Of a stretch of DNA of 64,000 nucleotides, positions 11,251 to 40,025 are shown piece after piece (within the stretch, counting starts at the first letter, position 1; each line of letters starts with the position of its first letter). The notes under the pieces were generated by a model that was given only the letters and a program-made list of their open reading frames with translations, had not been told where the DNA came from and did not search any database. Origin of the DNA: Candidatus Poseidoniaceae archaeon (GTDB lineage: Archaea > Thermoplasmatota > Poseidoniia > Poseidoniales > Poseidoniaceae); assembly GCA_030747695.1 (NCBI GenBank), contig JASLKG010000004.1, forward strand, positions 73,184 through 137,183, read 5' to 3'. A program made the position numbers and the translations under genes.

Positions 11251-12462
11251 ATGTCGGATGCCATCCCCCGCGATATGGCATTGGCAGGTTCTAGAATTGA
11301 TTGGCGTAAACACCTATTACAAATGATAGATGATGAAGATATCAACAGTGATTTTCGACCTATAGTTAACAAAATTGTTTCAGGAACCTCTCTCTCATTG
11401 GAGGATGGGATTTATCTTTACAATCATTCGGATTTAGAGACTATTGGAAAATTAGCAAATTTGGTAAAGAAAGCAAGATTTGATGATCGTGCATTTTTCA
11501 ACTTGAATGTACATATTAATCAGACTAATATCTGCACTTTAGCTTGCAAGTTCTGTGCCTTTCGCCGAGGACGAAATTCAAAGGATGCATATGCATTATC
11601 TATCGATGAATATTTACTCGAAGTATCACAATATGCGCAATTTGTCGATGAAGTTCATTCGGTTGGAGGTTTACATCCCGATTGGGACATCAACCATTAC
11701 GAAAGCCTATTTTCAAAAGCCAAATCCTCACATCCAAATATTCATTATAAAGCATTAACAGCTGTCGAGATCAAACACATTGCTGGGATTTCAGGAATTA
11801 GTATTGAAGAAACTCTAGAACGGCTGCAAAATGCCGGACTAGGGTCTTTACCAGGTGGTGGTGCTGAGATATTAGATGATAATGTTAGGAAAATAATTTG
11901 TAATGGTAAAGAGTCTTCTGAAGAGTACTTAGAAATTCATTCAATTGCCCATTCACTTGGTATACCAACTAATTGTACTATGTTATTTGGTACAATAGAA
12001 AATACAAAACAAAAAATCACACACATGATTAAATTACGTAAAACCCAAGAAAACACTGGAGGTTTCCAATGTTTCGTACCATACCCATATCTGCCTGATA
12101 ATTCACGTCTAACTCAGGCGAAATTAGCAACTGGTGTTGAAATATTGCGTACTATTGCAGTTTCAAGATTAATGCTTGACAATATACCTCATGTTAAGGC
12201 ATACCGAATGAATCTTGGAGATTTTGTTTCAGAATTGGCTTTACAATATGGTGCTGATGATATTGATGGAACAGTGCATAAGGAATCCATTATGCATCTT
12301 GCAGGCTCTGATGCCCCACTTGACCATGATTACAATAATATTGCAAGAATTGTCAATGACGCAGGTTGCCGCGCAGTAAAGAGAAACTCGACATATACTG
12401 CCTTTGAAGAAATAATCCCGATTAAGAAAACTCATCGTAAGAAATTACCAATGGCTCAATAA
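11251..12462 (+). CDS. Radical SAM enzyme of the futalosine pathway (MqnE aminofutalosine synthase / MqnC family)
   Basis: CTLACKFC (Cx3Cx2C) cluster motif, family-typical N-terminal region, and location immediately upstream of mqnA. I cannot separate MqnE from MqnC by eye. Confidence 0.75.
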   Translation: MSDAIPRDMALAGSRIDWRKHLLQMIDDEDINSDFRPIVNKIVSGTSLSLEDGIYLYNHSDLETIGKLANLVKKARFDDRAFFNLNVHINQTNICTLACKFCAFRRGRNSKDAYALSIDEYLLEVSQYAQFVDEVHSVGGLHPDWDINHYESLFSKAKSSHPNIHYKALTAVEIKHIAGISGISIEETLERLQNAGLGSLPGGGAEILDDNVRKIICNGKESSEEYLEIHSIAHSLGIPTNCTMLFGTIENTKQKITHMIKLRKTQENTGGFQCFVPYPYLPDNSRLTQAKLATGVEILRTIAVSRLMLDNIPHVKAYRMNLGDFVSELALQYGADDIDGTVHKESIMHLAGSDAPLDHDYNNIARIVNDAGCRAVKRNSTYTAFEEIIPIKKTHRKKLPMAQ

Positions 12463-12473
12463 GAGGTATCTGA

Positions 12474-13259
12474 ATGTGGAAGAAAACTATCGGGAGGGTG
12501 GCATTCATCAATTGTGAGCCTCTATACTATGGCCTTAATAGCCAATGGAGAATTCTTTCTGCACCACCTTCGTGGTTAACTGGACACCTGTTGCGTAGAG
12601 ATTGTATTATTGCTCCAATACCTGCTGCAGATTATGCAAAATATAGTGACGAATTAGTCCTTGTTCCAAATTTATCAATTTCATCAAAGGGTGAAGTGGG
12701 TAGTGTTTTGTTGTTTTCAAAACATAATCTTAACGATGTGAAAACTATAGCGTTACCTTCAGATTCTGCAACTTCTGTAAAATTACTAAAATATTTATTG
12801 AATTCTAGGGGCATTAGGCCTGAATATATTGAAATGGGGCCTGACTTAGATGCTATGCTGGCTAAATGTGACGCATGCTTACTCATTGGTGACAGAGCCC
12901 TAAATGCTTCAACTAATTATCCAGATATAGTCAAACTAGATTTGGGGTCTGAATGGAAAGAAAATAGCGGTTACCCTATGGTTTTCGGTGTTTTTGCTGC
13001 ACGCTCTGATACGGATAAAAAACTCGTTATAGAAGCCCATAATGCATTACTATCACGTCTAGAAGATTTTGAAAACAATCAAGATACGCGTGCTAAAGTA
13101 ATTCTAGAATGTGCAGAAAGGACAAATCAGGATATTTCGCGCCTTGAGAAATATTTTGGTGAAGTTATCAATCGAATGGATGCAGAAGATATGGATGGGC
13201 TCAATCTATTCCTAGGAGATGTTTGTGAAATGCCCCATGGCCCAAAACTAGCCTGGTGA
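12474..13259 (+). CDS. mqnA: Chorismate dehydratase MqnA (PF02621 family)
   Basis: RVAFINCEPLYYGL start, SDSATSVKLLKYLL, and ACLLIGDRAL, typical of MqnA. Confidence 0.8.
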   Translation: MWKKTIGRVAFINCEPLYYGLNSQWRILSAPPSWLTGHLLRRDCIIAPIPAADYAKYSDELVLVPNLSISSKGEVGSVLLFSKHNLNDVKTIALPSDSATSVKLLKYLLNSRGIRPEYIEMGPDLDAMLAKCDACLLIGDRALNASTNYPDIVKLDLGSEWKENSGYPMVFGVFAARSDTDKKLVIEAHNALLSRLEDFENNQDTRAKVILECAERTNQDISRLEKYFGEVINRMDAEDMDGLNLFLGDVCEMPHGPKLAW

Positions 13260-15611
13260 TTATTGATCTCCCTCATCAATAAATCCTTTCAGTAAATCTG
13301 ACTGTAAAGCATCTTCATCAATTTTCTTTTTATCTTTGGAAGGTTTCTTTTTACGTCTAACAGCTTTCCTTCTTGATTTTTCTTTTACTACTGGCTCTGG
13401 TTCGGCTTTTTTGACCTTTCTAGTCCTAACAATAGGAGTTTCTGATACACTCGATGATGAAACAATTTTCTTTTTTGCCACAACATTGCTGTTATCATTA
13501 TCAGAATCTCCACCCAAACGCCGTCTCTTTGTTCGCATTATTGGGCCATCTGTATTTATATCGCGCGAAGTTGATCTTCGTCTTACTTTGACACCTTCGT
13601 TTTCACCAGTGAATTTAGAGTCTGAATTACCAAAATCAGGCTTACTCTTTGGGGGTGTTCGTTTAGGAGGTTTTCGTTTAGGAGGTGTTCTTCTTTGAGG
13701 AGGACTTGAGTCAAAAGAATCATTATCCCCATCCTCTTCAATATCTAAGTCATTATCGAATTTAAAATCCTCTATCTCTTCTTCTTCATCGTCAAGATCC
13801 AAGTCAATCTTGTTATCTCTGCGCACTAGATAGAGTAATCCTATCATCGAAAGAACTAGGTAAATTGCTAATGCAATAGGATGTGCTAAAATATAGAATG
13901 CTTTTTCGGTATTCGACTCAACTGGTTTAGGTAATTCCTTCATTGATAAATTAAGAGTTTCACCGTCATTTACCCAAATATCAACAGAACTCATAATTCC
14001 ACCTTCACCATGCATTGAGACTGACATCGGATGTGCTGGTGCTAACCATGAAATCGAACCATCTGTTGGTTCAGGCTGACTTGATAATGTCATATTTAAC
14101 GGATACTCAACTACAGATTGGATTAAGAATGTAGTAACTATTGTGATAGTAATTTGTGTTATTGAATCAGTTTCCTGGACCATCACCATACCCCCATAAA
14201 GGGTGCAATGAACACGCCCTGTCCCAAGAGCTCCGCTCGAAAGTGTAATCGATTCCCTCCATTGCTCAATTATATCATCATCATCCATATTTTCACACAT
14301 AGCATCCGCAAATAGATCTGCTTCCAACTCACTTATTTTGTGGTCATCGTGCTGGGCCAATCGACTCAAATTTCTGATGGAACTTGAAGGGACTGGTGGT
14401 AATGTAATGTGATCTGAAATAGTTAGAATGCCTTCCTCAAAATGAAAATCAGCCTTTCTAATTTTAGCAAGATTTGGAAATTCGGAGCAAGGTACATCTT
14501 CAGGGGAATCACATCCTATGTCATTATCCCATTGATCGTTTAATCCATCTCCATCATCATCTTCATCCAATATGTCCGGAACAAAATCTTTGTCTGTATC
14601 CTTTCCTGGCTGGCCATAGCCTAGAGGTAATAATTCACTTCGATAGGTAGCGATTCCACCAACTCCGCCCGCTACAAATATTGTTGTGATTCTACTTAAT
14701 TCATCATCAATTATCTCAGCATCATAGACCTGATGAAAGAAACTGGTTTGTGTTGCCTCAACCAGACCAATGATGTCCAATGTTACTAAACCATGCACCA
14801 TATTAGTACTGTATGCGACATGTACTCTTTGGCCATTATGTGAAAATAATAATTGTTTGGCTCCATCAATTTTATGTGAGTCTTGATGTTGACCATCAAT
14901 CCCTTTTCTAATAATCTCGCCTAACTCATTGATTATGAGGTAGGAGTTACTATCGGGAGTAAACATACAATCAGTTAACAGAGTTCCGTGTTGCATATAG
15001 GACCCTACCAATTGTGAATCTGATACATCCCATATTGCATACCTGCCACTTTCATCACCTGTAATTATCCAATTCCCATCAGAACTATAATCGATGCATG
15101 TTACATCAGAATTGTGCACACCAGAGAGAGTTGCTTTTAACGTCATATCATTTGTCCTAAATAGATCTACATCACCAGATTCCCCCGGTGCTGCTAATAC
15201 TGTATCGTCGATACTCCATGCAATATCCACAGCCTTGTCATCTGCTACCGCCTCTTGACTCAAAACTATTGAGTCATCAATGTCTATAATTTTAAGTGAT
15301 TCCCTTACAGTAAACGTTGCACCTTTGCTAACTGCTAGCAAGCTACCATCATTTGAAAACTCCAAAGTTGAGATTCTTTCAAATTCAAAACTTGCAATTT
15401 TATGTAAATTACTAGTGTCGTACAATGCTACTTCATTATCATGTGCTGCTGCAAGTATTGTCGAGTCCCCATTTAAAGCTATAATACTGCCTTCTGTAGC
15501 ATCATATGACCATGTTGAACCTGTATATGTCAGGCCTGAGGGAGTTGCATTTACAAGCGGTGAAAATAGTGTCAATACTAGAATCACGACTAGGAGCCTC
15601 GCTCTCGACAT
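13260..15611 (-). CDS. Secreted WD40/beta-propeller protein with a TSP3-like Ca-binding repeat, one TM anchor and a Lys/Arg/Pro-rich cytoplasmic tail
   Basis: Signal peptide MSRARLLVVILVLTLFSPLVNA. WD-like blades (CIDYSSDGNWIITGDESGRYAIWDV). DEDDDGDGLNDQWDND. TM segment ILAHPIALAIYLVLSMIGLLYLV. Tail PPQRRTPPKRKPPKRTPPKSKP. Confidence 0.8.
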   Translation of the reverse strand: MSRARLLVVILVLTLFSPLVNATPSGLTYTGSTWSYDATEGSIIALNGDSTILAAAHDNEVALYDTSNLHKIASFEFERISTLEFSNDGSLLAVSKGATFTVRESLKIIDIDDSIVLSQEAVADDKAVDIAWSIDDTVLAAPGESGDVDLFRTNDMTLKATLSGVHNSDVTCIDYSSDGNWIITGDESGRYAIWDVSDSQLVGSYMQHGTLLTDCMFTPDSNSYLIINELGEIIRKGIDGQHQDSHKIDGAKQLLFSHNGQRVHVAYSTNMVHGLVTLDIIGLVEATQTSFFHQVYDAEIIDDELSRITTIFVAGGVGGIATYRSELLPLGYGQPGKDTDKDFVPDILDEDDDGDGLNDQWDNDIGCDSPEDVPCSEFPNLAKIRKADFHFEEGILTISDHITLPPVPSSSIRNLSRLAQHDDHKISELEADLFADAMCENMDDDDIIEQWRESITLSSGALGTGRVHCTLYGGMVMVQETDSITQITITIVTTFLIQSVVEYPLNMTLSSQPEPTDGSISWLAPAHPMSVSMHGEGGIMSSVDIWVNDGETLNLSMKELPKPVESNTEKAFYILAHPIALAIYLVLSMIGLLYLVRRDNKIDLDLDDEEEEIEDFKFDNDLDIEEDGDNDSFDSSPPQRRTPPKRKPPKRTPPKSKPDFGNSDSKFTGENEGVKVRRRSTSRDINTDGPIMRTKRRRLGGDSDNDNSNVVAKKKIVSSSSVSETPIVRTRKVKKAEPEPVVKEKSRRKAVRRKKKPSKDKKKIDEDALQSDLLKGFIDEGDQ

Positions 15612-15695: not shown

Positions 15696-16181
15696 ATGGA
15701 GAATTTGGAGGGTGCTGAGTCATGCTGCGATAGTCCTGTAGATTCCGAGATTGAATTTTCATGGAAAGACAAAGGTGTTTGGAAACAAAGTGCGAATAAT
15801 ACAAAATGGTGTCTGATTGGTTGTAGTATTGGAGATTTTGGAACGATAGCAGCTTTCCAGTTTGTTTTCATAGATTCAGGATGGAGTGATATGGCAATAA
15901 TGGCGTTAGCCATGTTTAATGGCATTATGACTTCAATAGCACTTGAAACAATAATTTTGTCTGCGCAATTGCCACTTAATGAAGCATTCAAGGTAGCCAT
16001 TGGTATGTCGTTGATTTCAATGATTTCTATGGAAGCGGCCATGAATGCAGTAGATCTCGTTTTAACTGGAGGAGCGATGTTGACTTGGTGGGTAATTTTG
16101 CCTATGTTTACAGCAGGTTTCTTGACTCCATGGCCATATAATTACTGGCGATTGAAAAAATTTGGTAAGTCCTGCCATTGA
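15696..16181 (+). CDS. Small integral membrane protein, DUF4396-like
   Basis: Four TM segments, with WCLIGCSIGDFG resembling the conserved Cys/Gly motif of DUF4396. N-terminal ESCCDSP. Confidence 0.45.
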   Translation: MENLEGAESCCDSPVDSEIEFSWKDKGVWKQSANNTKWCLIGCSIGDFGTIAAFQFVFIDSGWSDMAIMALAMFNGIMTSIALETIILSAQLPLNEAFKVAIGMSLISMISMEAAMNAVDLVLTGGAMLTWWVILPMFTAGFLTPWPYNYWRLKKFGKSCH

Positions 16182-16223: not shown

Positions 16224-17108
16224 ATGACAGAGGGATTGCCCATAGATAATGATGGTAATTACATTGTCAGGATTGGACATTCACCCGACCCTGATGATGC
16301 TTTTATGTTTCATGCAATGACAACCAATGCCTTTGAAACACCAGGTTACAAATTCGTTCATGAATTGCAAGACATAGAGACTCTCAATAAAAGAGCTATG
16401 CGTAATGATCTCGAAGTATCAGCAGTTAGTATACATGCATATCCTGAAATTTCAGAAAACTATGCTCTAATGAATTGTGGAGCTTCAATGGGTGAAGGTT
16501 ATGGACCTATGATTGTAGCAAAAAAGGGCATTTCAATTGATGATGCTAAATCAAATTCTATTGCAATTCCTGGGTTAAAAACTAGCGCTTATTTGGGAAT
16601 TCGTCTTTGTTGGGGTGATTTAGATTATGAAGTAGTTCCATTTGACGAGATTATTCCAAAAATACTCGATGATACTTACAAATCAGGATTAATTATCCAT
16701 GAAGGCCAATTAACATATTCAGATTATGATCTAGAAGTACTAGTTGATTTAGGTATTTGGTGGAATGAAAAAACGGGTGGACTACCAATGCCTCTTGGAG
16801 GTAATGTTGTTCGACGTGACCTTGGAGATAAGGCGATCAATGACATCACAAATTACACAAAAATGAGCATAGAGCATTCACTAAAAAACCCAGAGATAGC
16901 TTTAGAATTTGCCAAAAAATGGGGTCGTGGAATAGACGATAAGACAAACAAAGAATTTGTTTCAATGTATGTAAATGAACGAACAATTGACTACAAAAAT
17001 GAGGGTCGAGATTCGATTCGTAAATTTTTGCAAGCGGGAAAAGAAATTGGTCTAATTTCCGAAAACTTTGATGTTGAAGGTTTGGAATTTGTTGGCTCAG
17101 GTGAATAG
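16224..17108 (+). CDS. MqnA/MqnD-family (PF02621) menaquinone biosynthesis protein, MqnD-like
   Basis: IGHSPDPDDAFMFHAM, DIETLNKRA, VSAVSIHAY and GASMGEGYGPMIV motifs. Confidence 0.7.
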   Translation: MTEGLPIDNDGNYIVRIGHSPDPDDAFMFHAMTTNAFETPGYKFVHELQDIETLNKRAMRNDLEVSAVSIHAYPEISENYALMNCGASMGEGYGPMIVAKKGISIDDAKSNSIAIPGLKTSAYLGIRLCWGDLDYEVVPFDEIIPKILDDTYKSGLIIHEGQLTYSDYDLEVLVDLGIWWNEKTGGLPMPLGGNVVRRDLGDKAINDITNYTKMSIEHSLKNPEIALEFAKKWGRGIDDKTNKEFVSMYVNERTIDYKNEGRDSIRKFLQAGKEIGLISENFDVEGLEFVGSGE

Positions 17109-17109
17109 G

Positions 17110-17592
17110 ATGAGAAATGAAAAGAGAACACCTAGAGTCTCTGAATTTGGCTCAGTTGACCCGGCGCCACCATTATCGATTGGTGATGTGGAATCTTGGA
17201 GAACTACCTTGCTTGATGACAACAAAAAAATGTTTGAAAAAATGCGTGTGGTTTTTTCACTTAGAAATAATCGCTCTCCAAAAGCAGTAATGGCATTATG
17301 TGATGGATTTCGTTCCAATAGTGCCTTACTGCGACATGAAATCGCATATGTTTTGGGCCAGATGCAAGATAAATTGGCAATTCCTACACTCATTGAACGA
17401 TTGAGTGATGTGTCTGAACACATAATGGTAAGGCATGAGGCTGCAGAAGCTCTTGGAGCCATAGGTGAACAGAGGGCAAAAATTGTTCTTGAGCGATTTT
17501 TGACTGATCCAAATCCAGAAGTTGCTGAATCATGCGAAGTAGCATTAGATTTGTTGGAACTATGCGCCAATAATGAAAAAATTGAATGGTGA
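17110..17592 (+). CDS. Half-length deoxyhypusine hydroxylase (DOHH)-like HEAT-repeat protein
   Basis: SVDPAPP, ALLRHEIAYVLGQMQ, MVRHEAAEALGAIG and ESCEVALD match the C-terminal half of eukaryotic DOHH. ATG lies 1 nt after the mqnD-like stop and is preceded by AGGTGA. Confidence 0.75.
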   Translation: MRNEKRTPRVSEFGSVDPAPPLSIGDVESWRTTLLDDNKKMFEKMRVVFSLRNNRSPKAVMALCDGFRSNSALLRHEIAYVLGQMQDKLAIPTLIERLSDVSEHIMVRHEAAEALGAIGEQRAKIVLERFLTDPNPEVAESCEVALDLLELCANNEKIEW

Positions 17593-17849
17593 ATATAGCC
17601 AAATTCAAAGACCCCATGCATTTAGGAACAGTTGAGGGAGACGTTTTGCCACACGAGCATATCGAATTAGCACAGTCACCAAGTGGTGAATTAGGCCCGC
17701 GATGTAAGTCCTGTGGAACACGGATGACATTTGGTGAAGCAATGGTTGTCGACAAAGATTACTACTGTTGGGAACATTATGTTCTGGTAACAGGGTCTGA
17801 TACTGCAACTGTAGAACGCGAGAGAGATGTTAGATTCTGGAAGGAATGA
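17586..17849 (+). CDS. Small zinc-finger protein (Cx2C-x17-Cx2H), unknown function
   Basis: Overlaps the DOHH-like stop by 7 nt, and its own stop overlaps the priS ATG (ATGA). Motif CKSCG...CWEH. Confidence 0.55.
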   Translation: MVNIAKFKDPMHLGTVEGDVLPHEHIELAQSPSGELGPRCKSCGTRMTFGEAMVVDKDYYCWEHYVLVTGSDTATVERERDVRFWKE

Positions 17850-19081
17850 ACTTATCAGCCGTCGGTAATAACAAATTGATGGGCGGTACAATGTCAGGGT
17901 GGGCTAGATTCGCACACAGATTCACTCAATACTACCGAACAGCGGCTCTGTGGACACCACCCCGGCTAAAATCAAGAGAGTGGATGTTTATACCATTTGG
18001 AAATGGTAATCCTCTTCGGCATAAATCATTTTCAAATATAGAAGATGTACGAAAATTTGTTTGTGAACGGCCACAACATTCTTGTTTCTATTCAACTGCT
18101 TACTGGAAGAGACCACATGAACTCAAAATGGCGGATAAAGATTGGCTGGGTACTGATTTGATTTTCGATCTTGATGGAGACCATCTACCGGGAGTTACTG
18201 ATAGAGATTTTCCTGCAATGATAGAAGTTATACAGGAACAAGCTTGGTCATTGTGGAATGACTTCCTTGAACCTGATTTTGGGTTTAAAGAAGATTATTT
18301 ACAAGTAACTTTTTCAGGACATAGAGGCTTTCATTTACATTATCGAGACCCTTCGTATTTACATCTTAACTCTGAATCAAGAAGAGAATTAGTGTCACAT
18401 ATTAGAGGTGTCGGTGTAGAAGTAGTGGATCTTTTTGAGAGATCACAATCACCTCATGCAACTGGTTGGGCGAAACGTATTCGAAAGGGATTTGACGATG
18501 TTGTTGGAAAACTTGATGAGATATATTCAGGTAACAATGAACATTTGAAGACCATGGAAGCTGGTTTGCGAGAAATGCTTGACCGCGAGGGAATTAAGGG
18601 ATTGAGGAGTACAGCATCAATAAGAAAACTAGCCGAATTAATGCAAGATAAAGGACGAAGAGATCGTGTTTTGTCTGGAAGATTTCAGGCCCTGAATAAT
18701 CATGGTTCCTTGTTACAAAATTTAATAAAATCAGATTCAAGTGTTATACTTGGTAGCGCCGGTGAAACTGATGAGGTGGTGACAATTGACACTAGGAGGC
18801 AAATTCGATGGCCTGGTTCCCTCCATGGAAAATCAGGTATGAAAGTAACTGAATTTCCTCTATCTCGACTTGATCCTTCCAAATCAAATTCTTTTGATTG
18901 TTTAAGTGAAGGTATTGCTTTATCTCGGCAGGAAAAGGTTTCAGTTGAAATTATCGAAGATGATGTCGTGGCTCGTTTTGATGACACTGTAATTGATTCA
19001 CCTCGTGGCACTATCATCGAAACGCATGAAGCAGGGGCTACATTCCTCGTTTTGAAGAAATGGGGACGGATTTCAAAATAA
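17846..19081 (+). CDS. priS: DNA primase small (catalytic) subunit PriS
   Basis: DLIFDLDGDH catalytic DxD motif, FSGHRGFHLH, REWMF and YY motifs of archaeo-eukaryotic primase. Confidence 0.9.
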   Translation: MNLSAVGNNKLMGGTMSGWARFAHRFTQYYRTAALWTPPRLKSREWMFIPFGNGNPLRHKSFSNIEDVRKFVCERPQHSCFYSTAYWKRPHELKMADKDWLGTDLIFDLDGDHLPGVTDRDFPAMIEVIQEQAWSLWNDFLEPDFGFKEDYLQVTFSGHRGFHLHYRDPSYLHLNSESRRELVSHIRGVGVEVVDLFERSQSPHATGWAKRIRKGFDDVVGKLDEIYSGNNEHLKTMEAGLREMLDREGIKGLRSTASIRKLAELMQDKGRRDRVLSGRFQALNNHGSLLQNLIKSDSSVILGSAGETDEVVTIDTRRQIRWPGSLHGKSGMKVTEFPLSRLDPSKSNSFDCLSEGIALSRQEKVSVEIIEDDVVARFDDTVIDSPRGTIIETHEAGATFLVLKKWGRISK

Positions 19082-19112
19082 TTCTGAATACCATACGAAG
19101 TATGGTCATTTG

Positions 19113-20252
19113 ATGGTAACGTTCAAGTCTGCATCACTACCCACCGAACACGAGGTGCGCAAGTTGGGGCTTGGTAGGAAGAAGAAAGAGGTTGCTAAAT
19201 TACCGCCTGCTCCAGGCTTACCGCCACTGCCTATGCCACCTGCACCAGGCATGCCACTGCCACCTGCACCAGGCCTACCACCTCTGCCAGCACCACCGGC
19301 TCCTAGTGCCCCAATGCCCCCTGCACCAGTTCCAACTCCAGTTGCACTATCTGATTCAAATAAACAGGAAGATTTGAAACCTCCAGTTGAAGCTTTACCT
19401 CCTGCGATTACTACAGAACCTGAGCCGGAACCTGAAGAAGATTCATACTCCGGTCTGTATGCAAGAAAAAGTGGAAAACCACTTCAGCAAGTTTATGGAC
19501 ACATAGAACGCATTGGGACAGGAGAGGTAGGCAGCCTACTAGATCGTTATGCTGACAGATTTGGCCATGAACTAGATAGAGATATCATTGTGATGCGAAA
19601 GGATGAACGTGAGGACAAAATGTCTGAAGTTAGAGACTCTCCAACAGTCGAGTTATTGAATGTTGAAGAAGAAGATGATTCCCATCTTGATGCAGAAACA
19701 CTAGTTGAATTGAACTCTCAATTGAAAAGCGTTGAAGATGAATTGCGGAGACTTAAACCTGAATATCAGGAAGCAAAAGAACAAGGTGATCGTGCAATTC
19801 TTGTTGAATTAAGGCCAACACTTGAAGCTCTTATGAAGGAAAGGAAGATGATTCAGGCAGTCATTGCAGGTGAGGCAACACTTGATGATTTATTGACAGA
19901 TTCTGATGAAGACTCTGAGGATGTTTACGAAGAAAGCGAAACAGAATATGAAGAAGAAATTGTTGAGGAATCTTCCGATGATGATTTATTCCTGTCATTT
20001 GTAACAATTGTTGATAATCTTCTTGGAAGTAATTTGCCCGAAGACAAAATTGATGAATTTATGCAATCTAGTGGATTTGGACTATACCGTGATGTTGGTT
20101 CTGATCCAGAAAATGCTGATGAAGATAGACGTGCTGAATTCTTCAAAGTTGTAGACTCTTTGTTAGGCGGCATGCCTGATGAAGCTGTTTCCGAATTTGT
20201 TGAATCTGCAGATTTCGATATCTATCGGGCTATTGGAGCGATGTACAGTTAG
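19113..20252 (+). CDS. Polyproline-rich, highly acidic coiled-coil protein with a duplicated C-terminal motif; unknown function
   Basis: An approximately 47-aa PPAPG(L/M)PPLP tract, a central coiled-coil-like segment, and two copies of the (F)xxVVDxLLGxxLPxDxxxEFxxSxxFxxYRxxG motif. Confidence 0.7.
   Translation: MVTFKSASLPTEHEVRKLGLGRKKKEVAKLPPAPGLPPLPMPPAPGMPLPPAPGLPPLPAPPAPSAPMPPAPVPTPVALSDSNKQEDLKPPVEALPPAITTEPEPEPEEDSYSGLYARKSGKPLQQVYGHIERIGTGEVGSLLDRYADRFGHELDRDIIVMRKDEREDKMSEVRDSPTVELLNVEEEDDSHLDAETLVELNSQLKSVEDELRRLKPEYQEAKEQGDRAILVELRPTLEALMKERKMIQAVIAGEATLDDLLTDSDEDSEDVYEESETEYEEEIVEESSDDDLFLSFVTIVDNLLGSNLPEDKIDEFMQSSGFGLYRDVGSDPENADEDRRAEFFKVVDSLLGGMPDEAVSEFVESADFDIYRAIGAMYS
19203..19340 (+). 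repeat. In-frame imperfect tandem repeat of Pro/Ala/Gly codons (unit about 24-27 nt, ccacctgcaccaggc core)
   Basis: ccacctgcaccaggcatgccactg is followed by ccacctgcaccaggcctaccacctctg, with a degenerate copy upstream. This is a local GC spike. Confidence 0.8.
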
Positions 20253-38325: not shown

Positions 38326-38423
38326 AATTCGACCTCAAGCCCCTCGGACAATGTGAGGCGTGTAACTTCAAGTCCATGAACCATTATATCTTGAAAGGGG
38401 GTGGGCGAGACGGAGTGACAGTA

Positions 38424-40025
<1,602 letters not shown>

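What the first reader, a model, noticed from the sequence alone, without database searches (positions are those of the whole stretch)
17110..17592. Half-length homologue of eukaryotic deoxyhypusine hydroxylase (DOHH) in an archaeon
The 160-aa ORF is more than a generic HEAT-repeat protein. It reproduces, in order, the landmarks of the C-terminal half of eukaryotic DOHH as I recall the human and yeast sequences:
- SVDPAPP (human SVDPAPP, yeast SIDPAPP)
- MFEKMRVVFSLRN (human LFERYRAMFALRN)
- SALLRHEIAYVLGQMQ (human SALFRHEVGYVLGQLQ)
- MVRHEAAEALGAIG (human MVRHECAEALGAI)
- ESCEVALD (identical in human)

Eukaryotic DOHH is about 300 aa. It is an internal duplication whose di-iron site uses the His-Glu motifs of both halves. 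This ORF carries exactly one half with both HE dipeptides, so an active site would require a homodimer.

To my knowledge, archaea that carry hypusine on aIF5A are reported to lack an identifiable hydroxylase. A single-half DOHH could therefore be either the missing archaeal enzyme, a pre-duplication form, or a transferred fragment. The gene is tightly chained by overlapping or 1-nt junctions between an mqnD-like gene and a zinc-finger ORF plus priS, which argues that it is expressed.
Basis: partly seen in the sequence, partly recalled or inferred. Interest (0 to 1): 0.8.

Follow-up and report, generated by a model that had tools for sequence, protein, structure and literature searches.

The report
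Half-size deoxyhypusine hydroxylase in marine archaea
A 160-residue gene in this Marine Group II archaeon is a real, strongly conserved, single-domain relative of the eukaryotic two-domain enzyme that completes the hypusine modification of translation factor 5A, an enzyme the literature says archaea lack.

Summary
ORF 17110..17592 (+) encodes 160 aa, and its only strong natural match among solved structures is human deoxyhypusine hydroxylase (DOHH, 4D4Z; E 1.7e-65). It aligns without gaps to each half of DOHH and scores better against the C-terminal half. Both His-Glu motifs (H76-E77, H109-E110) and G83 fall on the published iron and substrate residues.

The gene is not a fragment or a one-off:
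- It lies 1 nt after mqnD.
- 159-163-aa orthologues occur in both families of Poseidoniales (MGIIa and MGIIb), always directly after mqnD.
- dN/dS is about 0.05.
- HE motif 2 and the SVDPAP motif are intact in 243/243 relatives, and HE motif 1 in 241/243.

A published annotation table for an MGIIb genome lists deoxyhypusine synthase, aIF5A and this gene together (KEGG K06072), but no paper I found discusses it.

Most likely it is a homodimeric di-iron hydroxylase that makes hypusine on aIF5A. Dimerisation and activity are inferred: a tandem-fusion AlphaFold model did not reproduce the closed DOHH architecture.

Its origin is unresolved between capture of a eukaryotic C-terminal half and a pre-duplication relic. 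I rate it a new variant of a known kind, of moderately high interest.

The parts
17110..17592 (+). Gene for the 160-aa single-domain (four HEAT repeat) DOHH homologue
   Evidence: ORF. Best solved-structure match is human DOHH 4d4z, E 1.7e-65. Identical protein P0001 from a Poseidoniaceae MAG. Eight helices, i.e. four hairpins, in the AF2 model. dN/dS about 0.05 among orthologues.
17152..17172 (+). SVDPAPP motif (aa 15-21), an N-terminal extension before the first HEAT helix. In eukaryotes it corresponds to the conserved start of the C-terminal half at the inter-domain linker.
   Evidence: Aligned to human SVDPAPP. Present in 243/243 MGII-type proteins. Absent from the N-terminus of 93/93 eukaryotic DOHHs.
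17335..17340 (+). His-Glu motif 1 (H76-E77). It is equivalent to human H56-E57 and H207-E208 (iron ligand His; substrate-binding Glu).
   Evidence: Gap-free alignment. Residue roles from PMC3306375 and PMC9117371. HE intact in 241/243 relatives.
17356..17358 (+). G83, equivalent to human G63/G214 (reported substrate-binding glycine)
   Evidence: Alignment. Role from PMC9117371. Invariant in alignment A1.
17434..17439 (+). His-Glu motif 2 (H109-E110). It is equivalent to human H89-E90 and H240-E241 (iron ligands).
   Evidence: Alignment. Roles. Present in 243/243 relatives.
16224..17108 (+). mqnD (1,4-dihydroxy-6-naphthoate synthase type, VitK2_biosynth). It lies immediately upstream and is the only gene whose adjacency is kept in both MGIIa and MGIIb.
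   Evidence: Pfam PF02621, E 8.6e-65. Synteny in 80 MGIIa-type loci and in MGIIb loci L081-L084 after an inversion. Named mqnD/K11785 in PMC9723583.
17586..17849 (+). 87-aa CxxC...CxxH small ORF overlapping both the DOHH-half stop and the priS start. It travels with priS, not with the DOHH-half gene.
   Evidence: ORF. No Pfam hit. Conserved next to priS in MGIIa. In MGIIb a 65-aa ORF sits upstream of priS on the opposite strand from the DOHH-half gene; its homology to the 87-aa ORF was not tested.
17846..19081 (+). priS (DNA primase small subunit), downstream neighbour in MGIIa only
   Evidence: Pfam DNA_primase_S. Synteny.
11251..13259 (+). mqnC (radical SAM/CofH_C) and a second VitK2_biosynth gene (mqnA type). 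These are the rest of the futalosine-pathway cluster that flanks the gene.
   Evidence: Pfam. The homologous genes are named mqnA/K11782 and mqnD/K11785 in PMC9723583.

Best explanation
The gene encodes a single-domain, four-HEAT-repeat relative of deoxyhypusine hydroxylase. It is a vertically inherited, single-copy core gene of the order Poseidoniales (Marine Group II).

Proposed mechanism:
- Each chain supplies one His (H76) plus one His-Glu pair (H109-E110), enough to hold one iron. E77 and G83 are available for the deoxyhypusine side chain.
- Two chains pack concave face to concave face, as the N and C halves of eukaryotic DOHH do, and so build the oxygen-activating di-iron centre.
- The homodimer uses O2 to hydroxylate deoxyhypusine on aIF5A, which is made by the lineage's deoxyhypusine synthase from spermidine, giving hypusine.

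Shown here:
- DOHH-specific homology.
- Exact alignment of ligand and substrate residues.
- Half length is real and not a broken gene.
- Strong purifying selection.
- Presence in both MGII families.
- Co-occurrence with DHS and aIF5A in a Poseidoniales genome.

Inferred: iron binding, dimerisation, substrate and product.

On origin, I lean weakly (about 0.5) to an ancient capture of the C-terminal half of a eukaryotic DOHH in the Poseidoniales stem. The phylogeny does not resolve this.
For: Homology
- Human DOHH is the top solved-structure match (E 1.7e-65). The query aligns without gaps to both halves, 122 bits (C) and 99 bits (N).
- In a search of 1.84 billion representatives, the best non-repetitive hits are two-half proteins of about 300 aa. 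All those whose names I checked are eukaryotic DOHHs: Phytophthora, Bigelowiella, Hirondellea and Plasmodiophora.

Catalytic residues
- H76, H109 and E110 align to H56/H207, H89/H240 and E90/E241, which anchor the di-iron centre. E77 and G83 align to E57/E208 and G63/G214, which bind the deoxyhypusine side chain (PMC3306375; PMC9117371).
- HE2 and SVDPAP are intact in 243/243 MGII-type proteins, and HE1 in 241/243.

A real half-size gene
- mqnD ends 1 nt upstream, so there is no room for an N-half.
- Orthologues in 75 loci are 156-162 aa, apart from one outlier.
- There is no second copy in the window or in any 12-kb locus.
- Only one HEAT/COG1413 gene appears in the held annotation table of an 82-92% complete MGIIb MAG.

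Selection and distribution
- dN/dS has a median of 0.047.
- 374 GTDB species genomes carry a relative, and the best 80 are all Poseidoniales.
- MGIIb is confirmed by the name 'Candidatus Thalassarchaeaceae archaeon'.

Pathway context
- The MGIIb MAG SIMO Bin 19-2 carries DHS (K00809, next to speD), aIF5A (K03263) and this gene (K06072, between mqnA and mqnD). Transcript coverage was detected for it.
- The DHS and aIF5A entries have their best eggNOG hits (MG2_1533, MG2_1047) in the reference MG-II genome, which also encodes the half-DOHH (L065).

Ecology
- Poseidoniales are aerobic surface-ocean heterotrophs (abstracts). This fits an O2-dependent enzyme.
Against: - There is no biochemical evidence of any kind.
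- The one dimer test I could run was a head-to-tail fusion of the protein modelled with AlphaFold2. Both domains were confident (pLDDT 87.7), but pTM was only 0.56. TM-score to 4d4z was 0.41-0.45 with rmsd 9 A, so the closed two-layer DOHH arrangement was not reproduced. Closure is reported to be iron-mediated (PMC9040561), so this result is inconclusive rather than negative.
- Early amino-acid analyses found mainly deoxyhypusine in Euryarchaeota, including Thermoplasmatales (PMC5178350).
- The conserved operon partner is mqnD (menaquinone synthesis), not DHS or aIF5A.
- Eukaryotic N and C halves are only about 36% identical to each other. They may have specialised roles that a symmetric homodimer cannot fill.
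- DHS and aIF5A were not verified in this particular genome, because the window lacks them.
- Transcript coverage in the one available table is low.
Confidence: 0.6

Rival explanations
1. Pre-duplication relic. The Poseidoniales protein descends from the single-domain, homodimeric ancestor of DOHH that existed before the internal duplication seen in all eukaryotes. It might even come from the lineage that donated DOHH to eukaryotes. It would function as in the best explanation; only the origin differs.
For: - In the full NJ tree, Poseidoniales, eukaryotic N-halves, C-halves and the outgroup are each monophyletic, and N groups with C, leaving Poseidoniales outside the duplication.
- Poseidoniales proteins are closer to both halves (0.45 and 0.42 identity) than the halves are to each other (0.36). 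They are also closer to generic HEAT outgroups (0.30 against 0.26).
- Their sequence is a mosaic of N-like and C-like states, and several of the N-like states are ancestral by outgroup comparison.
- They were never nested beside one particular eukaryotic lineage. The nearest eukaryotic sequences are simply the slowest-evolving ones (Spearman 0.62) and come from unrelated groups.
Against: - Bootstrap support for N+C is only 9-13%, no better than for Poseidoniales+C at 11-15%. Sister-group tallies give a plurality to the C-half.
- No site shows an N+C synapomorphy.
- A short Poseidoniales branch alone explains the distance pattern.
- The (Y/F)xSVDPAPP extension is shared only with the C-half.
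- The core also scores higher against C in 64/80 eukaryotic proteins.
- Among the hits I could inspect, the gene appears in one archaeal order only. That order's two families split about 1.1 Ga by one estimate (PMC10877094). A relic would therefore require loss in all other archaea.
Confidence: 0.2
2. Same fold and probably the same di-iron chemistry, but a different substrate. The protein would be an oxygenase acting on a small molecule or another protein. One possibility is a link to quinone metabolism, because it is translationally coupled to mqnD inside the futalosine (mqnC-mqnA-mqnD) cluster.
For: - The mqnD-to-DOHH-half junction (1-3 nt) is the only adjacency kept in both MGIIa and MGIIb, even after the inversion that moved priS away.
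- Euryarchaeota were reported to carry mostly deoxyhypusine.
- The gene is not linked to DHS or aIF5A.
Against: - Identity to eukaryotic DOHH halves is 45-50%. This includes the residues shown to bind the deoxyhypusine side chain (E57/E208 equivalent E77; G63/G214 equivalent G83), not just the iron ligands.
- From general knowledge, the futalosine pathway needs no extra hydroxylase after MqnD.
- Archaeal operons commonly mix unrelated housekeeping genes. In MGIIa the same operon continues into priS.
Confidence: 0.13
3. A non-catalytic HEAT/PBS-lyase-like repeat protein (scaffold or adaptor), whose resemblance to DOHH reflects a shared repeat consensus. This is how NCBI labels it ('HEAT repeat domain-containing protein', 'PBS lyase').
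For: - Pfam and NCBIfam return only generic families: HEAT_2, HEAT_PBS, and weak NblB/CpcE hits.
- The eggNOG best hit for the MGIIb orthologue was a generic thaumarchaeal PBS-lyase HEAT protein.
Against: - Those libraries contain no DOHH model. The NblB and CpcE scores are 32 and 22 bits against cutoffs of 300 and 330.
- Against sequences, DOHH scores 223 bits, while natural HEAT_PBS structures score 22-24 bits.
- The generic repeat has R/A where this protein, like DOHH, has the invariant His-Glu (consensus lines).
- HE motif 2 is invariant and HE motif 1 nearly so (241/243), and dN/dS is 0.05.
Confidence: 0.05

Closest known systems
Eukaryotic deoxyhypusine hydroxylase (human DOHH, yeast Lia1; EC 1.14.99.29; PDB 4D4Z)
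   Same: - 43-50% identity to each half.
- HEAT-hairpin fold.
- Both His-Glu motifs of a half, the substrate-binding Glu and Gly, the MVRHEAAEALG and ESCEVALD blocks, and the SVDPAPP motif that opens the C-terminal half.
- Occurs in a lineage that has DHS and aIF5A.
   Different: - Half the size: four HEAT repeats and two HE motifs per chain instead of eight and four.
- The di-iron site, which in eukaryotes lies between the two covalently linked halves, would have to form between two identical chains.
- Archaeal host; embedded in a menaquinone gene cluster.
- No biochemical data.
HEAT_PBS / phycobilisome-lyase-type repeat proteins (CpcE, NblB, E. coli YibA, M. thermautotrophicus MTH187, designed alphaRep proteins)
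   Same: The same repeat type and about the same repeat length. Pfam HEAT_2 and HEAT_PBS match, and structures match by Foldseek.
   Different: - These proteins lack the His-Glu pairs and the DOHH-specific blocks.
- Sequence scores are about ten-fold lower for natural members (22-24 bits).
- They are binders or lyase subunits, not oxygenases.
Bacterial EF-P hydroxylase EpmC (YfcM)
   Same: From general knowledge, it is a functional analogue. It hydroxylates the modified lysine side chain of the bacterial homologue of a/eIF5A as the last step of the modification.
   Different: Unrelated fold and family, and a different substrate modification (beta-lysyl-lysine). It was not compared computationally here.

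Membership tests
Deoxyhypusine hydroxylase (DOHH/Lia1, EC 1.14.99.29) | Sequence homology specific to DOHH rather than to generic HEAT repeats | tested here: met
   4d4z scores E 1.7e-65 and 223 bits, against 22-24 bits for natural HEAT_PBS structures. The top non-repetitive hits among 1.84 billion representatives are two-half DOHH-type proteins of about 300 aa.
Deoxyhypusine hydroxylase (DOHH/Lia1, EC 1.14.99.29) | Eight HEAT repeats in one chain, arranged as a symmetrical dyad of 4+4 | tested here: not met
   160 aa with eight helices, i.e. four hairpins. The upstream gene ends 1 nt before the start. All orthologues are 156-163 aa. The dyad could be met only at the level of a homodimer.
Deoxyhypusine hydroxylase (DOHH/Lia1, EC 1.14.99.29) | [quoted passage not shown] | tested here: inconclusive
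   Each chain has two HE motifs, aligned exactly to the ligand positions of either half. Four motifs would require two chains, and dimerisation is not shown.
Deoxyhypusine hydroxylase (DOHH/Lia1, EC 1.14.99.29) | Residues that bind the deoxyhypusine side chain (E57/E208, E90/E241, G63/G214) | tested here: met
   E77, E110 and G83 align to them. G83 and E110 are invariant and E77 nearly so in MGII proteins.
Deoxyhypusine hydroxylase (DOHH/Lia1, EC 1.14.99.29) | Closed two-layer architecture with the active site sandwiched between the two halves | tested here: inconclusive
   The tandem-fusion AF2 model gave pLDDT 87.7 but pTM 0.56, and TM 0.41-0.45 with rmsd 9 A to 4d4z. A true homodimer prediction could not be run.
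Deoxyhypusine hydroxylase (DOHH/Lia1, EC 1.14.99.29) | Co-occurrence with the substrate pathway (deoxyhypusine synthase and a/eIF5A) | tested here: met
   This was met for the lineage, not for this genome. The MGIIb MAG SIMO Bin 19-2 lists DHS, aIF5A and the K06072 gene, and its DHS and aIF5A entries have their best eggNOG hits in the reference MG-II genome. Neither DHS nor aIF5A is present in the 64-kb window.
Deoxyhypusine hydroxylase (DOHH/Lia1, EC 1.14.99.29) | Di-iron content and O2-dependent hydroxylation of eIF5A(Dhp) to hypusine | not testable with these tools
   This needs recombinant protein, metal analysis and an activity assay.
Phycobilisome lyase / NblB-type HEAT_PBS proteins | Score above the curated family threshold of an equivalog model | tested here: not met
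   NblB scored 32.1 bits (cutoff 300), CpcE 22.5 bits (cutoff 330) and CpeY 13.2 bits (cutoff 600).
Generic HEAT_2 / HEAT_PBS repeat superfamily (Pfam PF13646, PF03130) | Repeat-level profile match above the gathering threshold | tested here: met
   HEAT_2 scored 73.5 bits (cutoff 27.7) and HEAT_PBS 49.5 bits (cutoff 20.9). DOHH itself belongs to this superfamily, so this result does not discriminate.

The most novel reading that the evidence does not exclude
The Poseidoniales protein is a living representative of the pre-duplication, homodimeric form of deoxyhypusine hydroxylase. The eukaryotic enzyme would then have arisen by tandem duplication and fusion of a gene like this one, and an archaeal lineage outside Asgard would preserve (or have donated) the ancestral state of a eukaryotic signature enzyme.
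Probability: 0.2. Interest if true: 0.85.

Novelty: new variant of a known kind. Interest (0 to 1): 0.66.

Why it matters
Reviews and primary papers from 2012 to 2016 state that DOHH is absent from archaea, and the 2021 review I read places hypusine modification only in 'certain archaea' without naming an archaeal enzyme. The enzyme that makes hypusine in archaea is unknown (PMC3306375, PMC5178350, PMC9117371).

This gene would matter in three ways.
- **An archaeal DOHH.** It shows that one of the most abundant archaeal groups of the surface ocean carries a clear DOHH relative together with DHS and aIF5A. It predicts that these Thermoplasmatota make full hypusine, unlike their cultured relatives.
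- **A test of how DOHH evolved.** It is a natural 'half enzyme'. It makes directly testable the idea that the pseudo-symmetric di-iron site of DOHH began as a homodimer interface. The gene is small, soluble-looking and easy to synthesise, so dimerisation, iron loading, the long-lived peroxo-diiron intermediate and activity on aIF5A(Dhp) can be examined even though the organisms are uncultured.
- **Inter-domain history.** It records either an old eukaryote-to-archaeon transfer of part of a gene or a relic of the pre-duplication enzyme.

It does not solve the question of the crenarchaeal hypusine hydroxylase.

Tried and rejected
1. **Single-sequence AlphaFold2 of a head-to-tail fusion.** pLDDT was 49, so the model is unusable.
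3. **Fusion modelled with eukaryotic DOHH and MGII rows.** The domains were confident but not the closed arrangement. I treat this as inconclusive.
4. **Distance phylogeny.** I ran NJ with bootstraps, 20,000 random quartets, a four-point test on group means, sister-group tallies and site-pattern polarisation. None resolves whether Poseidoniales branch with the C-half or outside the duplication. No maximum-likelihood program was available.
5. **A specific eukaryotic donor.** None was found. The nearest eukaryotic sequences are the slowest-evolving ones and come from unrelated groups.
6. **DHS, aIF5A or a second half in the window and 80 loci.** Nothing was found.
7. **Broken gene or pseudogene.** Rejected on gene spacing, ortholog lengths and dN/dS.
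8. **Recent transfer.** Rejected. GC of the gene is 0.40, equal to the window mean, and synteny is conserved across the order.
9. **The zinc-finger ORF as a functional partner.** Rejected. It stays with priS when the region is inverted in MGIIb.
10. **Papers not held.** Park 2006 and Kim 2006 could not be read. The Rinke 2019 supplements did not list the MAG names I searched for.
Full report
**1. What is at the coordinates**

The + strand carries an ORF from the ATG at 17110 to the stop at 17590-17592, encoding 160 aa. A longer TTG-initiated reading from 17068 overlaps the upstream gene and is not supported by the ortholog lengths. The human strings quoted from memory are also correct, as shown by the residue-by-residue alignment to chain 4d4z_A.

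The upstream gene (16224-17108) is a VitK2_biosynth/MqnD protein and ends 1 nt before the start. The stop overlaps the ATG of an 87-aa CxxC...CxxH ORF (17586-17849), and that ORF's stop overlaps the ATG of priS (17846-19081).

The window is ordinary chromosome of a Marine Group II archaeon. It encodes SRP54, ProRS, MetRS, an OPT transporter, a P-type ATPase, a proteasome-type AAA ATPase with the proteasomal OB domain, urocanase and one tRNA-Val. GC is 0.40, and the gene itself is also 0.40. An identical protein, P0001, is on record from a 218-kb contig of a 'Candidatus Poseidoniaceae archaeon'.

**2. Is it DOHH-like rather than merely HEAT-like?**

Pfam and NCBIfam have no DOHH-specific model.
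- They return HEAT_2 (73.5 bits) and HEAT_PBS (49.5 bits).
- PBS-lyase equivalogs score far below threshold: NblB 32 bits against a 300-bit cutoff, and CpcE 22 against 330.

Sequence-to-sequence searches settle the question.
- Among all PDB chains the best hit is human DOHH, at E 1.7e-65 and 222.7 bits.
- Residues 8-150 align without a gap to the C-terminal half (122 bits). Residues 26-151 align to the N-terminal half (99 bits).
- The best natural non-DOHH structures (MTH187, CpcE, YibA) score 22-24 bits.
- In an exhaustive HMMER search of 1.84 billion representative proteins, the top hits fall into two groups. One is giant proteins with 9-25 HEAT repeats, whose scores are sums over repeats. 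The other is two-half proteins of about 300 aa at 40-52% identity.
- Those I looked up are eukaryotic DOHHs: Phytophthora, Bigelowiella, the amphipod Hirondellea, and Plasmodiophora.

**3. Catalytic residues**

The PDB chain index runs 5 ahead of native numbering, because chain residue 11 is native E6. The gap-free alignments therefore give these equivalences:

| Window residue | Human N-half | Human C-half |
|---|---|---|
| H76 | H56 | H207 |
| E77 | E57 | E208 |
| G83 | G63 | G214 |
| H109 | H89 | H240 |
| E110 | E90 | E241 |

The literature assigns H56, H89, E90, H207, H240 and E241 to the di-iron centre. [quoted passage not shown]

- the second HE motif and the SVDPAP motif are intact in all 243;
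- the first HE is intact in 241;
- the two exceptions are singleton metagenomic sequences.

**4. The half length is real, and the gene is a core gene of the order**

A scan of one genome per GTDB species found 374 stretches encoding relatives. The best 80 are all Poseidoniales, including the original MG-II genome CM001443.1, and are 57-69% identical to the query.

In those loci the order mqnD, DOHH-half, small Zn ORF, priS is essentially invariant.

A more divergent group (about 58% identity, 159 aa) belongs to MGIIb. One member is named 'Candidatus Thalassarchaeaceae archaeon'. There the region has been inverted. priS and a small 65-aa ORF lie on the other strand, but the DOHH-half gene still starts 3 nt after mqnD.

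So the conserved partner is mqnD, not the zinc-finger ORF or priS.

Further points:
- Ortholog lengths are 156-162 codons, with one outlier from my ORF-extension heuristic.
- No locus has a second copy.
- Pairwise Nei-Gojobori dN/dS has a median of 0.047 over 32 pairs with unsaturated dS.

The gene was therefore already present, half-sized and next to mqnD, in the common ancestor of the two families. One molecular-clock study places that split near 1.1 Ga (PMC10877094).

**5. Pathway context**

Neither DHS nor aIF5A lies in the 64-kb window or in the fetched loci.

The supplementary annotation table of a metatranscriptome study (PMC9723583) covers the MGIIb MAG SIMO Bin 19-2, genus O1, which is 82-92% complete. 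It lists:

| Gene | Annotation |
|---|---|
| 886 | deoxyhypusine synthase (K00809), next to S-adenosylmethionine decarboxylase |
| 1092 | aIF5A (K03263) |
| 936 | a 480-nt 'PBS lyase HEAT' gene that KEGG assigns to K06072 DOHH |

Gene 936 sits between mqnA and mqnD and is followed by a small ORF and the primase. Low but non-zero transcript coverage was recorded for it.

The best eggNOG hits of the DHS and aIF5A entries are MG2_1533 and MG2_1047 of taxid 274854, the reference MG-II genome. That genome also encodes the half-DOHH (locus L065). In the held part of the table, gene 936 is the only HEAT/COG1413 gene of that MAG. This argues weakly against a heteromeric partner of the same family.

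**6. Is it already described?**
- Papers from 2012 and 2016 state that DOHH is absent from archaea or that no archaeal orthologue is known.
- Full-text searches combining DOHH or hypusine terms with Asgard, Marine Group II, MGII, Poseidoniales or Thalassarchaeaceae found no discussion.
- Automatic pipelines already call these proteins 'deoxyhypusine monooxygenase' (JGI names; KEGG K06072).
- NCBI calls them 'HEAT repeat domain-containing protein', 'PBS lyase' or 'hypothetical protein'.

**7. Dimer test**

The natural C-terminus followed by the N-terminal ...SVDPAPP closely mimics the eukaryotic linker.
- Without an alignment the model was poor, with pLDDT 49.
- With 80 eukaryotic DOHHs and 30 MGII proteins as rows, both domains were confident: pLDDT 87.7, eight helices per copy.
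- However, pTM was 0.56 and the linker was disordered.
- Foldseek ranked 4d4z first (E 4e-18), but with TM 0.41-0.45 and rmsd 9 A over 284 columns.

Each half therefore looks like a DOHH half, but the closed sandwich was not reproduced. Closure of DOHH has been reported to depend on iron (PMC9040561), and AlphaFold2 does not model iron. I count this test as inconclusive.

**8. Origin**

I cut 80 complete eukaryotic DOHHs into N and C halves and aligned them with 25 MGIIa proteins, 27 MGIIb proteins and 10 segments of giant HEAT proteins as outgroup (129 columns).

Mean identities:

| Comparison | Identity |
|---|---|
| Poseidoniales vs C-half | 0.45 |
| Poseidoniales vs N-half | 0.42 |
| N-half vs C-half | 0.36 |
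| Poseidoniales vs outgroup | 0.30 |
| C-half or N-half vs outgroup | 0.26 |

The archaeal proteins are thus a short branch near the N/C node. Their estimated distance to the centre is 0.36, against 0.57 for C and 0.71 for N.

NJ bootstraps:

| Grouping | Support |
|---|---|
| MGIIa | 90% |
| MGIIb | 99.5% |
| MGIIa + MGIIb together | 78% |
| Poseidoniales + C | 14.5% |
| N + C | 9% |
| Poseidoniales + N | 3.5% |

The deeper position is unresolved.
- Quartets and the four-point test are split between the first two groupings.
- Sister-group tallies give a plurality to the C-half.
- No site is a clean synapomorphy either way in the core.

Three observations lean towards the C-half.
- A profile of the archaeal core scores higher on C than on N in 64 of 80 eukaryotic proteins.
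- The full-length profile does so almost always.
- The invariant N-terminal (Y/F)xSVDPAPP extension is shared only with the start of the C-half. It is absent from the N-terminus of 93/93 eukaryotic proteins.

No particular eukaryotic group stands out as donor.

I therefore lean, weakly, to an ancient capture of the C-terminal half of a eukaryotic gene (or capture of a whole gene followed by loss of the N-half) in the Poseidoniales stem. A pre-duplication relic is not excluded. Both readings predict a homodimeric enzyme.

**9. Verdict**

- It is not a member of the DOHH family in the strict architectural sense, because one chain has four repeats and two HE motifs, not eight and four.
- In every sequence feature I could test, it looks like one half of that enzyme.
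- The best-supported mechanism is a homodimeric di-iron deoxyhypusine hydroxylase acting on aIF5A (confidence about 0.6).
- The main rivals on function are the same chemistry on another substrate, suggested by the conserved coupling to mqnD (about 0.13), and a non-catalytic HEAT protein (about 0.05).
- It is a new variant of a known kind. Annotation pipelines recognise it, but I found no description in the literature I could search.

Noticed in passing
window 17586-17849 (+); L081 4855-5052 (-): An 87-aa ORF with a CxxC-x17-CxxH pattern and no Pfam hit overlaps both the DOHH-half stop and the priS start. In MGIIb loci a 65-aa ORF sits just upstream of priS even after the region is inverted. 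I did not test whether that ORF is homologous to the 87-aa one. It looks like a small zinc-binding protein coupled to the primase small subunit.
   Followed up: partly
window 13260-15611 (-): A 783-aa protein has an N-terminal signal-like segment and WD40 beta-propeller hits (best Pfam matches are to eukaryotic-type propeller models, all below their cutoffs). It also has a hydrophobic segment near residue 590 and a long Lys/Asp/Glu-rich tail. It is inserted on the opposite strand between mqnA and mqnD. It is present in most MGIIa loci but absent from about 17 loci that span both flanks.
   Followed up: partly
window 15696-16181 (+): A DUF4396 membrane protein lies between the WD40 gene and mqnD. 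It is found at this position in only about 12 of the 80 related loci, so it is a variable insert in an otherwise fixed gene order.
   Followed up: partly
window 19110-20252 (+): A 380-aa ORF has a proline-rich N-terminal third (repeated PPAPG/PPLP) and a very acidic C-terminal part, with no Pfam hit. It is conserved directly downstream of priS in most MGIIa loci.
   Followed up: no
window 38376-40025 (+): A 549-aa protein has several EF-hand calcium-binding motifs and a weak match to a membrane-protease transmembrane region. EF-hand domains are uncommon in archaeal proteins.
   Followed up: no
proteins P0097 and P0305 (relatives of window 17110-17592): Two singleton metagenomic relatives have a broken first His-Glu motif: RHGIAY (E to G) and LKNEIAY (H to N). 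Everything else is conserved. They may be sequencing errors or rare inactive alleles.
   Followed up: no
L054 6001-6486 and L080 426-914: One MAG (CTOTU8138) carries two different copies of the half-DOHH gene on two contigs. L080 is close to the copy in another species' genome (L077, dS 0.30). This is probably a mixed bin rather than a true paralogue pair.
   Followed up: partly
PMC9723583 supplementary file 4, gene 936 of SIMO Bin 19-2: The eggNOG best hit of the MGIIb orthologue is a generic Nitrosopumilus HEAT protein (Nmar_1251), not a gene of the reference MG-II genome. Yet that genome's DNA encodes a 60%-identical copy (L065). The gene was probably not called or not included in that reference proteome, which may explain why it went unnoticed.
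   Followed up: no
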